Source: Escherichia coli O127:H6 str. E2348/69
Lineage (GTDB): Bacteria; Pseudomonadota; Gammaproteobacteria; Enterobacterales; Enterobacteriaceae
DNA: 64,000 nt
Reading direction: 5' to 3' (one strand)
Assembly: GCF_000026545.1 (NCBI RefSeq)
Contig: NC_011601.1
The first letter of the stretch is position 1. Every line of letters starts with the position of its first letter. Both the position numbers and the translations under genes were made by a program. Below, piece after piece: positions 39,578 through 44,598 of this stretch. Under the pieces are notes generated by a model that did no database searches, was not told where the DNA came from, and saw nothing but the letters and a program-made list of their open reading frames with translations.

Positions 39578-39792
39578 TTTTCAGTGAACCCCATAAAAAT
39601 TAATAAGATATTCTTCTTCTCACTCTTTAAAAACTTTCTATAGTTCCCGCTCCCTTCACTATTTTTACAATTCACATAAATTGTCATTATTCATTCCGCA
39701 AGATTTATAACCTCCAGTGATAAAATGGCATTCAGCTCGTTAATAAGAGAGTTAACTTATTAAGCGTTAGCGTTTATTACTGAGGTAACACC

Positions 39793-40014
39793 ATGAAAAG
39801 ATTAATTCCTGTGACATTGCTCACCGCATTGCTGGCGGGCTGTGCTCACGATTCGCCCTGCGTTCCGGTTTATGACGATCAGGGTCGTCTGGTTCACACC
39901 AATACCTGTATGAAAGGCACGACTCAGGATAACTGGGAAACGGCTGGGGCTATTGCCGGCGGGGCAGCAGCTGTTGCTGGCCTGACGATGGGGATCATCG
40001 CTCTGTCGAAATAA
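39793..40014 (+). CDS. yhdV: Lipoprotein YhdV, 73 aa
   Basis: ORF track; MKRLIPVTLLTALLAGCAHDSPCVPVYDDQG... lipobox LAGC. Confidence 0.9.
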   Translation: MKRLIPVTLLTALLAGCAHDSPCVPVYDDQGRLVHTNTCMKGTTQDNWETAGAIAGGAAAVAGLTMGIIALSK

Positions 40015-40021
40015 CTAAACA

Positions 40022-40046
40022 GGGCGCGGAGCTCCGCGCTCTTTTT
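40022..40046 (+). terminator. Rho-independent terminator after yhdV
   Basis: agggcgcggagctccgcgct followed by ctttttaa. Confidence 0.6.
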
Positions 40047-40348
40047 AACGATACAGTATCTTTCCATAAGATAAAATATTGCTATATTCTGCTGGGTAAT
40101 TCCCTGCTGATTTAGCATGTTATATCACGTTATTTCGCTGCTTTCGAAATAACGCATCAATTTAACTTTCACACATCTCACCAGAAATATACTCACGCTA
40201 ACAATCATTATTCTGCTTAGTAAAAAACGCGTAAATATTTTGCGCCAAAATGTGGCGCATGTTTCATTTTCGCACCATTGCGGGGCGCTGTTTTTATTAT
40301 TTCCTGTCTACACTCAGCTTATTGCGACGCGAAATCGTGCGCAAAAGC

Positions 40349-40364
40349 TGGCACTACTTTTGCT
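40349..40364 (+). promoter_or_regulatory. Sigma-54 (RpoN) -24/-12 promoter for yhdWXYZ
   Basis: TGGCAC-tactt-TTGC is a perfect match to the sigma-54 consensus TGGCAC-N5-TTGC, about 80 bp upstream of yhdW; a GCACCA half-site resembling an NtrC site lies about 70 bp further upstream. Confidence 0.65.
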
Positions 40365-40444
40365 TATAAGAGGATGGCCACAGACAGGTAAAAGACGTTT
40401 CCCAAACGTCCTATAACGATAATTTTCGCCTCACAGGAAGCATT

Positions 40445-41470
40445 ATGAAAAAGATGATGATAGCCACACTGGCTGCCGCCAGCGTGCTGCTTGCCGTTGC
40501 AAATCAGGCGCATGCTGGCGCGACGCTTGATGCCGTTCAGAAAAAAGGTTTTGTGCAATGCGGGATCAGTGATGGATTACCTGGGTTCTCTTATGCCGAT
40601 GCTGACGGTAAGTTTTCAGGTATTGATGTAGATGTTTGTCGTGGTGTTGCCGCTGCTGTATTCGGTGACGATACGAAAGTGAAATATACCCCGCTCACTG
40701 CAAAAGAACGCTTCACCGCTTTACAGTCAGGGGAGGTGGATTTGCTCTCCCGTAATACGACCTGGACTTCATCTCGCGATGCCGGGATGGGAATGGCATT
40801 TACTGGCGTCACTTATTACGACGGCATTGGCTTCCTGACGCACGATAAAGCGGGGCTAAAAAGCGCGAAAGAACTGGATGGCGCTACCGTCTGTATTCAG
40901 GCGGGGACTGATACCGAACTCAACGTCGCCGATTACTTCAAGGCAAATAATATGAAGTACACGCCAGTAACCTTCGATCGCTCAGACGAATCAGCGAAGG
41001 CTCTGGAATCTGGCCGCTGCGATACTCTGGCCTCGGATCAATCACAACTGTATGCCCTGCGCATCAAATTAAGCAACCCAGCTGAATGGATTGTCTTACC
41101 GGAAGTTATCTCTAAAGAACCACTTGGGCCGGTAGTTCGTCGTGGCGATGATGAATGGTTCTCGATTGTACGCTGGACGCTTTTCGCCATGCTGAATGCT
41201 GAAGAGATGGGCATCAATTCCCAGAACGTCGATGAAAAAGCGGCTAATCCAGCAACACCTGATATGGCACATCTGCTGGGTAAAGAAGGCGATTACGGCA
41301 AGGATCTGAAGCTGGATAATAAATGGGCCTTTAACATCATCAAACAGGTGGGTAACTACTCGGAAATTTTCGAGCGTAACGTAGGTTCAGAAAGCCCGCT
41401 GAAAATTAAACGTGGGCAAAATAATCTCTGGAATAACGGCGGTATTCAGTACGCGCCGCCCGTGCGTTAA
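40445..41470 (+). CDS. yhdW: Amino-acid ABC transporter periplasmic binding protein YhdW, 341 aa (intact)
   Basis: ORF track; MKKMMIATLAAASVLLAVANQAHA signal peptide; first gene of yhdWXYZ. Confidence 0.9.
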   Translation: MKKMMIATLAAASVLLAVANQAHAGATLDAVQKKGFVQCGISDGLPGFSYADADGKFSGIDVDVCRGVAAAVFGDDTKVKYTPLTAKERFTALQSGEVDLLSRNTTWTSSRDAGMGMAFTGVTYYDGIGFLTHDKAGLKSAKELDGATVCIQAGTDTELNVADYFKANNMKYTPVTFDRSDESAKALESGRCDTLASDQSQLYALRIKLSNPAEWIVLPEVISKEPLGPVVRRGDDEWFSIVRWTLFAMLNAEEMGINSQNVDEKAANPATPDMAHLLGKEGDYGKDLKLDNKWAFNIIKQVGNYSEIFERNVGSESPLKIKRGQNNLWNNGGIQYAPPVR

Positions 41471-41537: not shown

Positions 41538-42719
41538 ATGTCTCATCGCCGCTCAACCGTTAAAGGCTCACTCTCTTTTGCCAACCCTACGGTTCGCGCC
41601 TGGTTATTCCAGATCCTTGCCGTTGTTGCTGTTGTCGGCATTATTGGTTGGTTATTTCACAACACTGTAACGAATCTCAGTAATCGTGGCATAACATCAG
41701 GATTTGCTTTTCTTGACCGCGGGGCCGGTTTTGGCATCGTTCAGCATTTGATTGATTATCAGCAAGGCGACACTTACGGACGCGTTTTTATTGTCGGCCT
41801 ACTCAATACGCTACTGGTTTCTGCATTGTGTATTGTGTTCGCTTCTGTTTTGGGCTTCTTTATCGGTCTGGCGAGACTTTCGGATAACTGGCTGCTACGA
41901 AAGCTTTCCACAATTTATATTGAGATCTTCCGTAATATTCCCCCGCTGCTGCAAATCTTCTTCTGGTACTTTGCCGTGTTGCGCAATTTGCCCGGACCAC
42001 GACAGGCAGTGAGCGCGTTTGATCTCGCCTTTTTGAGCAATCGTGGGCTTTATATTCCGTCGCCGCAGCTGGGAGACGGATTTATTGCGTTTATCCTCGC
42101 TGTTGTTATGGCTATAGTCCTTTCAGTTGGGCTATTCCGCTTTAATAAAACATACCAGATAAAGACCGGACAGCTGCGCCGCACCTGGCCATTCGCCGCT
42201 GTGTTGATCATTGGTTTGCCTTTACTGGCGCAATGGCTTTTTGGCGCAGCACTACACTGGGATGTCCCAGCCCTTCGAGGCTTTAATTTCCGCGGCGGGA
42301 TGGTTTTAATTCCTGAACTGGCAGCCTTAACGCTGGCACTTTCGGTTTATACCTCTGCATTTATCGCCGAGATTATCCGCGCGGGGATCCAGGCAGTGCC
42401 TTATGGTCAACATGAAGCTGCTCGGTCACTGGGATTACCCAACCCGGTTACGCTACGCCAGGTCATTATTCCCCAGGCACTGCGGGTGATTATTCCACCG
42501 TTAACCAGCCAGTATCTCAACATCGTCAAAAACTCCTCTCTTGCCGCCGCGATTGGCTATCCCGATATGGTTTCGCTGTTTGCTGGCACCGTGCTGAACC
42601 AGACGGGGCAAGCCATCGAGACGATAGCCATGACCATGTCGGTCTATCTGATTATCAGCCTGACTATCTCGCTGCTGATGAATATCTATAACCGCCGCAT
42701 CGCGATCGTTGAACGCTAA
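41538..42719 (+). CDS. yhdX: Amino-acid ABC transporter permease YhdX, 393 aa
   Basis: ORF track 41520..42719; MSHRRSTVKGSLSFANPTVRAWLFQILAVVAVVG from ATG 41538. Confidence 0.9.
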   Translation: MSHRRSTVKGSLSFANPTVRAWLFQILAVVAVVGIIGWLFHNTVTNLSNRGITSGFAFLDRGAGFGIVQHLIDYQQGDTYGRVFIVGLLNTLLVSALCIVFASVLGFFIGLARLSDNWLLRKLSTIYIEIFRNIPPLLQIFFWYFAVLRNLPGPRQAVSAFDLAFLSNRGLYIPSPQLGDGFIAFILAVVMAIVLSVGLFRFNKTYQIKTGQLRRTWPFAAVLIIGLPLLAQWLFGAALHWDVPALRGFNFRGGMVLIPELAALTLALSVYTSAFIAEIIRAGIQAVPYGQHEAARSLGLPNPVTLRQVIIPQALRVIIPPLTSQYLNIVKNSSLAAAIGYPDMVSLFAGTVLNQTGQAIETIAMTMSVYLIISLTISLLMNIYNRRIAIVER

Positions 42720-42725
42720 GGAGTC

Positions 42726-43832
42726 ATGATGACAAAAGTATTGCTGTCTCATCCCCCGCGCCCGGCGAGCCATAACTCAAGCCGCGCGATGGTGTGGGTG
42801 CGAAAAAATCTGTTCTCCAGCTTGAGCAATAGCCTACTGACTATTGGCTGCATATGGTTGATGTGGGAACTGCTCCCACCGTTGCTGAACTGGGCATTTT
42901 TGCAGGCTAACTGGGTTGGCTCAACGCGTGCCGACTGCACAAAAGCCGGTGCCTGTTGGGTCTTCATCCACGAACGATTTGGTCAGTTTATGTATGGGCT
43001 TTACCCACACGACCAACGCTGGCGAATTAACCTCGCATTACTGATTGGGCTTGTGTCGATCGCACCAATGTTCTGGAAAATACTCCCGTATCGCGGTCGC
43101 TATATTGCGGTATGGGCGGTGATTTACCCACTGATTGTCTGGTGGCTGATGTATGGCGGGTTTCTTGGTCTTGAGCGGGTTGAAACCCGGCAATGGGGCG
43201 GGCTGACGCTAACTTTAATTATTGCATCAGTTGGGATTGCGGGGGCGCTGCCGTGGGGGATCTTACTGGCGTTAGGTCGCCGCTCCCATATGCCGATTGT
43301 GCGTATCTTATCGGTCATTTTTATCGAGTTCTGGCGCGGCGTACCGCTGATTACCGTTCTGTTTATGTCTTCGGTCATGCTGCCGTTGTTTATGGCAGAA
43401 GGCACCAGTATCGACAAATTGATCCGCGCGCTGGTTGGCGTGATCCTGTTTCAGTCAGCATATGTTGCGGAAGTCGTGCGAGGCGGATTACAGGCGCTGC
43501 CTAAAGGGCAATATGAAGCGGCAGAGTCGCTGGCGTTGGGTTACTGGAAAACCCAGGGGCTGGTTATTCTGCCACAGGCGTTGAAGCTGGTGATTCCTGG
43601 GCTGGTAAATACCATCATCGCACTTTTCAAAGATACCAGCCTGGTGATCATCATCGGGTTGTTCGATCTTTTCAGTAGCGTTCAGCAGGCAACCGTTGAT
43701 CCCGCCTGGTTGGGTATGTCGACGGAAGGGTATGTTTTCGCCGCACTGATCTACTGGATCTTCTGTTTCAGCATGTCACGTTATAGCCAACATCTGGAAA
43801 AACGTTTTAACACTGGGCGTACACCGCATTGA
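42726..43832 (+). CDS. yhdY: Amino-acid ABC transporter permease YhdY, about 367 aa
   Basis: ORF track; [32 protein letters not shown]...; start could be either of the two adjacent ATGs. Confidence 0.88.
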
Positions 43833-43839
43833 GGACACT

Positions 43840-44598
43840 ATGAGCCAAATTTTACTGCAACCTGCTAACGCGATGATTACGCTGGAAAACGTCAATAAAT
43901 GGTATGGGCAATTCCATGTTTTGAAAAATATAAATTTAACCGTACAACCGGGAGAACGGATCGTTCTGTGTGGCCCTTCTGGTTCCGGTAAATCGACAAC
44001 CATTCGTTGTATTAATCATCTGGAAGAACATCAACAGGGACGGATCGTAGTAGATGGCATCGAACTTAATGAAGATATCCGCAATATTGAGCGCGTCAGG
44101 CAGGAAGTGGGAATGGTCTTTCAGCATTTCAATCTCTTCCCTCATCTGACCGTTCTACAGAACTGTACCCTGGCACCGATTTGGGTACGCAAGATGCCTA
44201 AGAAAGAGGCTGAAGCTCTGGCGATGCATTACCTTGAGCGGGTGAGAATTGCCGAACATGCCCAGAAGTTTCCCGGACAGATTTCAGGTGGTCAGCAGCA
44301 ACGCGTTGCCATAGCACGTTCACTTTGTATGAAACCAAAGATCATGCTATTTGATGAACCTACGTCGGCGCTCGATCCGGAGATGGTGAAAGAAGTGCTG
44401 GATACGATGATTGGGCTGGCGCAGTCGGGTATGACAATGTTGTGTGTAACACATGAGATGGGGTTTGCACGAACCGTCGCTGACCGGGTGATTTTTATGG
44501 ATCGTGGGGAAATAGTGGAGCAAGCTGCACCTAATGAATTTTTTGCGCATCCTAAATCAGAGCGTACGAGGGCATTTTTATCGCAGGTAATCCATTAA
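43840..44598 (+). CDS. yhdZ: Amino-acid ABC transporter ATP-binding protein YhdZ, 252 aa
   Basis: ORF track; Walker [13 protein letters not shown] signature [13 protein letters not shown], Walker [12 protein letters not shown]. Confidence 0.95.

What the first reader, a model, noticed from the sequence alone, without database searches (positions are those of the whole stretch)
40260..40444. Canonical sigma-54 promoter upstream of an intact yhdWXYZ amino-acid ABC transporter operon
TGGCAC-N5-TTGC at 40349-40363 is a perfect -24/-12 sigma-54 element about 80 bp upstream of yhdW, with a GCACCA half-site further upstream that could belong to an NtrC-type enhancer. This fits the reported nitrogen (Ntr) regulation of yhdWXYZ. 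yhdW is a complete 341-codon ORF with a signal peptide here. I recall yhdW being annotated as a pseudogene in K-12 but am not certain; if so, this strain retains a functional binding protein.
Basis: partly seen in the sequence, partly recalled or inferred. Interest (0 to 1): 0.3.

Follow-up and report, generated by a model that had tools for sequence, protein, structure and literature searches.

The report
Known sigma-54 promoter of yhdWXYZ operon
This is the already-mapped nitrogen-starvation (sigma-54/NtrC) promoter of an E. coli amino-acid uptake operon, and the intact first gene is the normal state of the species, because only the K-12 laboratory lineage carries the 1-base deletion that breaks it.

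Summary
TGGCAC-N5-TTGC sits at 40349-40363, 81 nt upstream of an intact 341-codon yhdW, and GCACCA lies at 40272-40277. The window is E. coli, 100% identical here to EPEC E2348/69.

- The identical 17-mer is sigma-54 ChIP-seq site OS34 in K-12.
- NtrC ChIP-seq has a peak at yhdWXYZ.
- RegulonDB listed the promoter by 2011.
- A 2026 preprint describes the K-12 frameshift (loss of A at nt 68, codon 23).

New here:
- The deletion allele is in 355 of 5,426 complete genomes, and all those sampled are K-12 lab derivatives. 5,038 genomes have the intact sequence, and the promoter is identical in K-12.
- The -24/-12 element is present in 79 of 79 assessable orthologous loci from about 25 genera.
- Two NtrC-like sites (about -126 and -96) and a block at -72 to -50 are conserved.
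- No ZraR box is present.

Side observation: the 70-nt leader has a covarying hairpin. It follows an invariant ACAGACAGG, a perfect complement of the GcvB R3 seed. That is a weakly supported, untested hypothesis.

Verdict: already known, low interest.

The parts
40241..40259 (+). Distal NtrC-like enhancer site (site 1), TGCGCCAAAATGTGGCGCA, centre about -126 from the predicted start
   Evidence: 10 of 14 matches to TGCACCA-N3-TGGTGCA. TGC.C and TG.GGC are invariant in 80 upstream sequences from about 25 genera. In E. coli it is a perfect palindrome, TGCGCCA-N5-TGGCGCA.
40271..40287 (+). Proximal NtrC-like enhancer site (site 2), CGCACCATTGCGGGGCG, centre about -96.
   Evidence: 10 of 14 matches in E. 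coli. The family consensus is TGCACCA-TTT-CRGGGCG, whose left half is a perfect NtrC half-site, and GCAC-N7-GnGC is invariant. The NtrC ChIP-seq peak at yhdWXYZ is displaced from these sites by the same amount as at glnAp2.
40303..40325 (+). Conserved block CCTGTCTACACTCAGCTTATTGC at -72 to -50, preceded by a T-rich tract. Possibly an IHF or DNA-bending site. Function unassigned.
   Evidence: Near-invariant across genera. The IHF-like core ACTCAGCTTATTG matches only 7 of 9 positions, with 0.72 such matches expected by chance per 90 bp.
40348..40364 (+). Sigma-54 -24/-12 promoter element CTGGCACTACTTTTGCT (yhdWp)
   Evidence: Identical to sigma-54 ChIP-seq site OS34 of MG1655. TGGCA(C/T)-N5-TTGC is present 83-115 nt upstream of the ATG in 79 of 79 loci, with a variable spacer.
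40375..40444 (+). Predicted 70-nt 5' UTR. The start is inferred (19 bp after the motif centre), not mapped.
   Evidence: Convention and distance of 70 from Bonocora et al. Table 1.
40378..40388 (+). Near-invariant leader motif CCACAGACAGG. Positions 40380-40388 (ACAGACAGG) are a perfect complement of GcvB nt 153-161, in the R3 seed.
   Evidence: At least 90% conserved in 71 UTR variants. The complementarity was computed on MG1655 gcvB. The R3 seed is defined experimentally in PMC9299463. The statistics are weak.
40394..40410 (+). Conserved leader hairpin GACGTTT-CCC-AAACGTC
   Evidence: 91% of 69 UTR variants fold here better than shuffles, mean z -3.2. In the structure-aware alignment 96.1% of cells pair, 7 of 8 pairs change on both sides, 0 of 500 shuffles reach the observed values, and slid controls pair at 33-62%. 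No Rfam family matches.
40413..40422 (+). Invariant leader motif ATAACGATAA, function unknown
   Evidence: Invariant or nearly so in 71 UTR variants.
40445..41470 (+). yhdW, intact periplasmic amino-acid-binding protein (341 aa). The signal peptide is about 40445-40516. K-12 lacks the A at 40512.
   Evidence: ORF. SBP_bac_3 domain. E = 4.9e-122 to PDB 4z9n, a periplasmic amino-acid-binding protein. Annotated intact in E2348/69. The K-12 deletion is shown.
41538..42719 (+). yhdX, ABC permease (393 aa)
   Evidence: E2348/69 annotation mapped to the window. BPD_transp_1 domain.
42729..43832 (+). yhdY, ABC permease (367 aa)
43840..44598 (+). yhdZ, ABC ATPase (252 aa)

Best explanation
This is yhdWp, the sigma-54-dependent promoter of the yhdWXYZ operon. 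The operon encodes an AapJQMP-type polar or general L-amino-acid ABC importer.

RNA polymerase with sigma-54 binds the -24/-12 element (40348-40364) as a closed complex. Under nitrogen limitation, phosphorylated NtrC binds two adjacent sites centred about 96 and 126 bp upstream of the start. NtrC oligomerises, contacts the polymerase by DNA looping, and drives open-complex formation by ATP hydrolysis. A conserved block at -72 to -50 may help the looping. Transcription starts near 40375 and yields a 70-nt leader followed by yhdW, yhdX, yhdY and yhdZ.

In this strain, as in about 93% of complete E. coli genomes, yhdW is intact, so the transporter has its periplasmic binding protein. The K-12 lineage lost it through a 1-bp deletion in codon 23.

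Shown here or in the literature on the identical sequence: the motif, its conservation, sigma-54 and NtrC occupancy in K-12, and the allele distribution. Inferred: the exact start site, which bases NtrC contacts, and the looping aid.
For: Motif at 40349-40363.

Sequence 40227-40511 is identical to MG1655, where the same 17-mer is sigma-54 ChIP-seq peak OS34 with FAT 29.

NtrC ChIP-seq has a peak at yhdWXYZ.

The promoter was listed in RegulonDB's sigma-54 set by 2011 and used as yhdWp in reporter work.

The -24/-12 bases are fixed and the spacer varies in 79 of 79 loci from about 25 genera.

Two 10-of-14 NtrC-like sites lie 30 bp apart, against 0.39 such matches expected per 430 bp on both strands. 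Their key bases are invariant across genera.

The same scoring recovers the classical glnAp2 sites (12/14 and 13/14, 32 bp apart). The ChIP-peak displacement is similar at both promoters: 136-168 bp at glnAp2 and 123-152 bp at yhdW.

Operon proteins are a family-3 SBP, two permeases and an ATPase.

K-12 deletion allele in 355 genomes, intact allele in 5,038 of 5,426.
Against: The pattern alone is not statistically significant in 64 kb.

The start site is predicted, not mapped.

Both NtrC-like sites are imperfect (10 of 14). Site 1 in E. coli has half-sites spaced by 5 nt rather than 3 nt.

The reported NtrC ChIP peak does not sit on the predicted sites but 120-150 bp downstream. glnAp2 shows the same offset.

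A reporter study found yhdWp weak despite its perfect consensus.

Another sigma-54 activator, ZraR, is reported to regulate the operon.

The original Ntr-regulon papers (Zimmer 2000; Reitzer and Schneider 2001) could not be read.
Confidence: 0.9

Rival explanations
1. The enhancer-binding protein that acts directly at this sigma-54 promoter is ZraR (the envelope-stress and zinc system) rather than, or in addition to, NtrC.
For: The 2026 preprint states that the operon is regulated by ZraSR, citing Rome et al. 2018. ZraR is a sigma-54 activator, so it would need a promoter of this kind.
Against: The well-defined ZraR boxes of zraP-zraS (CGAGTAAAAATGACTCG, twice) have no counterpart upstream of yhdW. 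No match to the GAGT-N7-ACTC core reaches 6 of 8, and the full-box matches are at background level and driven by the A/T spacer. A ZraR ChIP-exo study of K-12 does not mention yhd genes in its text. The conserved sites look like NtrC sites, and NtrC is found there by ChIP.
Confidence: 0.12
2. The operon is mainly transcribed from other, sigma-70-type promoters (upstream of yhdW or in the yhdW-yhdX gap), and the sigma-54 site contributes little.
For: The yhdWp reporter was among the weakest sigma-54 promoters tested. The preprint measured lux activity from yhdW and yhdX upstream fragments in LB and saw induction by lomefloxacin, conditions not obviously nitrogen-limited. A 9-of-12 sigma-70-like match exists at 40061-40088.
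Against: The count of sigma-70-like matches is no higher than in shuffles: 2 found against 1.5 expected. The region around 40061-40088 lies outside the footprinted stretch (40115-40444), so its conservation across genera was not measured. The sigma-54 element and enhancer are invariant. Sigma-54 occupancy is strong, with FAT 29.
Confidence: 0.1
3. The TGGCAC-N5-TTGC match is a chance occurrence with no promoter function.
For: 0.32 matches are expected per window, and 26% of shuffles contain at least one.
Against: It is conserved at the same position in 79 of 79 loci from about 25 genera, with only the non-contacting spacer bases varying. The identical K-12 sequence shows in vivo sigma-54 binding.
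Confidence: 0.01

Closest known systems
yhdWp of E. coli K-12 (RegulonDB/EcoCyc sigma-54 promoter; sigma-54 ChIP-seq site OS34 of Bonocora et al. 2015; NtrC ChIP-seq peak 17 of Brown et al. 2014)
   Same: Base-for-base identical from 218 nt upstream of the ATG to 66 nt into the gene. This covers the -24/-12 element, both NtrC-like sites and the leader.
   Different: Downstream of the promoter, K-12 lacks the A at nt 68 of yhdW, so its binding protein is truncated. Here the gene is intact.
glnAp2, the archetypal NtrC-activated sigma-54 promoter
   Same: A -24/-12 element plus two adjacent NtrC sites about three helical turns apart and roughly 100-140 bp upstream (for glnAp2; for yhdW).
   Different: The glnAp2 sites are near-consensus (12/14 and 13/14), and the yhdW sites are weaker (10/14 each). 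The spacing is 30 bp here against 32 bp. The core promoter here matches the consensus better (TTGC against TCGC at -12).
AapJQMP general L-amino-acid ABC transporter of Rhizobium leguminosarum, and YhdWXYZ of Citrobacter rodentium
   Same: The same four-gene architecture: a family-3 binding protein, two unusually long permeases and an ATPase. The literature equates aapJQMP with yhdWXYZ. Both are regulated by nitrogen status.
   Different: Substrate range was not tested here. The C. rodentium binding protein binds asparagine tightly, but the system is not the main asparagine importer.
GcvB R3-seed targets (phoP, lrp, cfa, panD, map, ydeE, gdhA)
   Same: A perfect 9-nt complement to GcvB nt 153-161, inside the validated R3 seed. 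The gene class, an amino-acid transporter binding protein, is typical of the GcvB regulon.
   Different: The site lies 56-64 nt upstream of the start codon rather than at the ribosome-binding site. yhdW is absent from the published regulon and from two CLASH data sets. The predicted energy is not exceptional.

Membership tests
Sigma-54 (-24/-12) promoter | GG and GC dinucleotides exactly 10 bp apart within TGGCAC-N5-TTGC | tested here: met
   Exact match at 40349-40363.
Sigma-54 (-24/-12) promoter | Intergenic, oriented towards a downstream gene at a plausible distance | tested here: met
   The element ends 81 nt before the yhdW ATG, and the predicted leader is 70 nt.
Sigma-54 (-24/-12) promoter | Conservation of the contacting bases but not the spacer in orthologous loci | tested here: met
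   79 of 79 loci. TGGCA and TTGC are fixed, and the spacer has many variants.
Sigma-54 (-24/-12) promoter | In vivo sigma-54 occupancy and rpoN-dependent transcription | not testable with these tools
   Occupancy is shown by ChIP-seq in MG1655 on the identical sequence. Dependence on rpoN in this strain has not been measured.
NtrC (GlnG)-activated enhancer | Two or more TGCACCA-N3-TGGTGCA-like sites about 100-140 bp upstream of the start | tested here: met
   Sites at 40241-40257 and 40271-40287 match 10 of 14 each, at about -126 and -96, and are conserved. The method was calibrated on glnAp2. The sites are weaker than at glnAp2.
NtrC (GlnG)-activated enhancer | NtrC binding and induction by nitrogen limitation | not testable with these tools
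   NtrC ChIP-seq peak at yhdWXYZ in K-12. NtrC regulation is stated in the literature.
ZraR-activated promoter | ZraR box (GAGT-N7-ACTC core, as in zraP-zraS) | tested here: not met
   No core match of 6 of 8 or better in 40015-40444.
AapJQMP / polar amino-acid ABC importer (PAAT type) | Family-3 periplasmic binding protein with a signal peptide, two BPD_transp_1 permeases and an ABC ATPase in one operon | tested here: met
   Pfam and NCBIfam hits. PDB 4z9n at E = 4.9e-122. All four ORFs are intact.
AapJQMP / polar amino-acid ABC importer (PAAT type) | Transport of L-amino acids | not testable with these tools
   Only indirect evidence: C. rodentium YhdW binds asparagine.
GcvB regulon (R3 seed) | Complementarity of 7 nt or more to the R3 seed in the mRNA leader | tested here: met
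   A perfect 9-nt complement, window 40380-40388 with GcvB 153-161.
GcvB regulon (R3 seed) | Interaction stronger than background, and recovery in interactome data | tested here: inconclusive
   The duplex energy of -18.4 kcal/mol is matched by 4.5% of shuffles and by 7 of 48 other leaders. yhdW is absent from two CLASH supplements, but the promoter is silent in those conditions.

The most novel reading that the evidence does not exclude
The yhdW leader may be a post-transcriptional control element that has been overlooked. It carries a hairpin that covaries across about 25 genera. The hairpin is preceded by an invariant ACAGACAGG, a perfect complement of the GcvB R3 seed. GcvB, the amino-acid-sufficiency sRNA, would then repress an NtrC-activated amino-acid importer. 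The link could have been missed because K-12's yhdW is a pseudogene and the promoter is silent in the media used for sRNA interactome studies.
Probability: 0.2. Interest if true: 0.35.

Novelty: already known. Interest (0 to 1): 0.12.

Why it matters
For the finding as given, the value is mostly in closing it. The promoter, its NtrC control and the K-12 frameshift are all documented, so no follow-up is needed on those points.

Two practical points follow:
- Conclusions about YhdWXYZ drawn from K-12 apply to a transporter without its binding protein. About 93% of E. coli genomes, including this EPEC-like strain, encode the complete system.
- The regulatory region is conserved in great detail across Enterobacteriaceae. 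The conserved parts are the enhancer, a block at -72 to -50, and a structured leader. This suggests more control is layered on this operon than the literature describes.

If the GcvB link were real, it would join nitrogen-starvation activation and amino-acid-sufficiency repression on one mRNA.

Tried and rejected
1. ZraR as the direct activator: I fetched the zraP-zraS enhancer and found no comparable box upstream of yhdW.
2. IHF site between the enhancer and the promoter: the best core matches only 7 of 9 positions, which is near the chance rate. The block is conserved, but I cannot assign it.
3. RNAalifold on a MAFFT alignment of the leaders found no structure. This was an alignment artefact, because the stems were out of register. 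I replaced it with per-sequence folding and a covariance-model alignment.
4. Rfam: no family matches in 39700-40700 at E <= 1.
5. GcvB R1 seed: its best duplex is worse than shuffles.
6. Unconstrained full-length duplexfold of the UTR against GcvB is uninformative.
7. yhdW does not appear in the CLASH supplements of two interactome papers. No supplements are held for the GcvB regulon paper.
8. Zimmer et al. 2000 and Reitzer and Schneider 2001 are not in the library, so the original Ntr evidence is cited only through later papers.
9. I considered the leader hairpin as an attenuator or terminator and rejected it, because no U-run follows the stem.

Full report
**What is in the sequence**

The stretch 40015-40444 is the intergenic region between yhdV (39793-40014) and a 341-codon ORF at 40445-41470. 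TGGCACTACTTTTGC occupies 40349-40363 on the + strand and is the only match to TGGCAC-N5-TTGC in the window.

That count alone is not beyond chance. The expectation is 0.32 matches per window, and 26 of 100 shuffles contain at least one. GCACCA is at 40272-40277.

The ORF is followed by three more ORFs. The four products are a family-3 periplasmic solute-binding protein, two BPD_transp_1 permeases and an ABC ATPase. The binding protein matches PDB 4z9n, a periplasmic amino-acid-binding protein, at E = 4.9e-122 from residue 22 onward. That fits a cleaved signal peptide ending in AHA.

**Identity of the locus**

The region is E. coli and is 100% identical over 1.9 kb to EPEC E2348/69 and related strains. 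The gene order is acrEF, yhdV, yhdWXYZ, rrnD. In E2348/69 all four transporter genes are annotated as intact.

**The K-12 comparison**

MG1655 annotates yhdW (b3268) as a pseudogene. Aligning the two alleles shows a single missing A in K-12 at window position 40512. This is nt 68 of the gene, in codon 23, the His of the AHA signal-peptidase motif. The frame shifts there and soon reaches stop codons.

From 40227 to 40511 the two strains are identical, so the promoter does not differ.

I used 44- and 45-nt allele-specific queries that cannot seed on the wrong allele:
- The deletion allele is in 355 of 5,426 complete E. coli genomes. All 60 of the 355 that were listed are K-12 laboratory derivatives, apart from one oddly named record.
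- The intact sequence is in 5,038 genomes.

Intact yhdW is therefore the species norm and K-12 is the exception.

**What is already published**

- The 17-mer CTGGCACTACTTTTGCT is sigma-54 ChIP-seq site OS34 upstream of b3268 in MG1655, with FAT 29 and PSSM 12.5. It is flagged as already predicted in EcoCyc. Its predicted start is 19 bp after the motif centre and 70 nt before the gene. In window coordinates that start is 40375.
- NtrC ChIP-seq lists a peak at yhdWXYZ.
- RegulonDB's sigma-54 promoter set included yhdW by 2011.
- A 2020 study used yhdWp as a reporter and noted its perfect consensus but weak activity.
- A 2020 preprint states that the operon is NtrC-regulated and non-functional in K-12 because of the yhdW frameshift.
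- yhdW' was used as a neutral pseudogene insertion site in 2012.
- A 2026 preprint describes exactly the deletion of A at nt 68. It also shows that Citrobacter rodentium YhdW binds asparagine, and it reports a role in gut colonisation.

**Conservation beyond E. coli**

One scan of species-representative genomes returned 80 loci from about 25 genera of Enterobacteriaceae, with YhdW at 90-99% identity.

In all 79 loci with enough upstream DNA, TGGCA(C/T)-N5-TTGC lies 83-115 nt upstream of the ATG. The contacting bases are fixed, and the five spacer bases take many forms. This is the pattern expected under selection for sigma-54 binding.

**The enhancer**

Scoring against TGCACCA-N3-TGGTGCA gives two 10-of-14 sites, at 40241-40257 and 40271-40287. 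About 0.39 such matches are expected per 430 bp on both strands.

They are centred about 126 and 96 bp upstream of the predicted start and lie 30 bp apart. Phylogenetic footprinting shows both are conserved:
- Site 2 has the family consensus TGCACCA-TTT-CRGGGCG, with GCAC-N7-GnGC invariant.
- Site 1 keeps TGC.C and TG.GGC invariant.

The same scoring on the MG1655 glnA upstream region recovers the two classical glnAp2 sites (12/14 and 13/14, 32 bp apart).

The reported NtrC ChIP peak lies 136-168 bp downstream of those known sites. At yhdW it lies 123-152 bp downstream of the predicted sites. The apparent mismatch between the ChIP peak and the predicted sites therefore also occurs at glnAp2, the calibration promoter, and does not argue against them.

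A third block, 40303-40325 (-72 to -50), is almost invariant. Its IHF-like core is only a 7-of-9 match, which is near the chance rate. I leave it unassigned.

**ZraR as a rival**

The 2026 preprint cites ZraSR control of the operon. The ZraR boxes of zraP-zraS (CGAGTAAAAATGACTCG, twice) have no counterpart upstream of yhdW. Direct ZraR action is therefore not supported by the sequence. Indirect control is not excluded.

**Most likely mechanism**

RNA polymerase with sigma-54 sits on the -24/-12 element as a closed complex. Under nitrogen limitation, NtrC-P occupies the two upstream sites, oligomerises, loops to the polymerase and drives open-complex formation. The resulting transcript encodes a complete AapJQMP-type amino-acid importer.

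Occupancy by sigma-54 and NtrC is shown in K-12 on the identical DNA. The start site, the exact NtrC contacts and any bending factor are inferred.

**Side observation: the leader**

The predicted 70-nt leader is far more conserved than a simple spacer would be:
- CCACAGACAGG (40378-40388) and ATAACGATAA (40413-40422) are invariant or nearly so.
- Between them, the sequence varies but always forms a hairpin.

RNAalifold on a MAFFT alignment missed the hairpin because the stems were out of register.

Folding each of 69 distinct variants separately gives a hairpin better than shuffles at p <= 0.05 in 91% of cases, with mean z -3.2.

A covariance-model alignment gives the following:
- 96.1% of cells form standard pairs, against 33-62% when the 3' partners are slid.
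- 7 of 8 pairs change on both sides.
- 0 of 500 shuffles reach the observed values.

The caveat is that this alignment was fitted to the structure. Frequent G-U pairs point to an RNA structure rather than a DNA palindrome. Rfam has no match.

**The GcvB idea**

ACAGACAGG (40380-40388) is a perfect complement of GcvB nt 153-161. Those nucleotides lie inside the experimentally defined R3 seed. GcvB is the master repressor of amino-acid transporter binding proteins, so the idea is biologically sensible.

The statistics are weak:
- A 9-mer complement somewhere between the two RNAs has an expectation of about 0.07 by my arithmetic.
- The local duplex energy of -18.4 kcal/mol is matched by 4.5% of shuffles and by 7 of 48 other leaders in the window.
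- The site is 56-64 nt upstream of the start codon.
- yhdW is absent from the published GcvB regulon text and from two CLASH supplements. The promoter would, however, be silent in those growth conditions.

I rate this hypothesis at about 0.2.

**Verdict**

The finding is already known and of low interest. The only possibly new material is the conserved structured leader and its untested complementarity to GcvB R3.

Noticed in passing
window 40394-40410 (leader hairpin), with flanking motifs at 40378-40388 and 40413-40422: The predicted yhdW 5' UTR contains a hairpin whose sequence varies but whose pairing is kept across about 25 genera. It is flanked by two invariant motifs. No Rfam family matches it, and I found no description in the papers searched.
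   Followed up: yes
window 40380-40388, against MG1655 gcvB nt 153-161 (L085 549-557): The invariant leader motif ACAGACAGG is a perfect 9-nt complement of the validated R3 seed of the sRNA GcvB. The support is statistically weak and the idea is untested. yhdW is not in the published GcvB regulon.
   Followed up: partly
window 40303-40325: The block CCTGTCTACACTCAGCTTATTGC at -72 to -50 lies between the enhancer and the promoter, is nearly invariant across genera, and follows a T-rich tract. Its IHF-like core matches only 7 of 9 positions, so the binding factor is unassigned.
   Followed up: partly
window 40241-40259: In E. coli the distal NtrC-like site is a perfect palindrome, TGCGCCA-N5-TGGCGCA. 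Each half matches an NtrC half-site at 6 of 7 positions, but the spacer is 5 nt instead of 3. In other genera the palindrome is less perfect.
   Followed up: partly
window 40375-40380, compared with L006-L081 leaders: Most other genera have TGGCCAnnGCCACAGACAGG at the start of the leader. E. coli has TGGCCACAGACAGG, which is 6 nt shorter, so it loses a small TGGC/GCCA inverted repeat at the 5' end.
   Followed up: no
MG1655 glnA upstream (L084 408-456) and window 40241-40287: The NtrC ChIP-seq peaks reported by Brown et al. 2014 lie about 120-170 bp downstream, in the direction of transcription, of the NtrC sites at both glnAp2 and yhdWp. Their coordinates should not be read as site positions.
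   Followed up: partly
hit H69, NZ_CP172017.1 (strain EcN_Sk, 5.06 Mb): A genome with a Nissle-like name and size carries the K-12-specific yhdW deletion allele. This suggests a K-12-derived segment or a hybrid or engineered strain.
   Followed up: no
L074 (CACSKA010000008.1, labelled Chryseobacterium sp. 18061) and L073 (Citrobacter sp. 18056): A record labelled Chryseobacterium carries an enterobacterial yhdW locus whose leader differs from that of the Citrobacter sp. 18056 record from the same study by a single base. This is probably a mislabelled or contaminated assembly.
   Followed up: no
window 40024-40047: A GC-rich hairpin, GCGCGGAGCTCCGCGC, followed by a T-run lies directly after yhdV. 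It is a likely intrinsic terminator that insulates yhdWp from yhdV transcription.
   Followed up: no
(E. coli genome collection): One copy of the yhdW region lies on a plasmid record, and a few genomes have two copies. The preprint mentions a partial duplication of the locus in Shigella flexneri.
   Followed up: no
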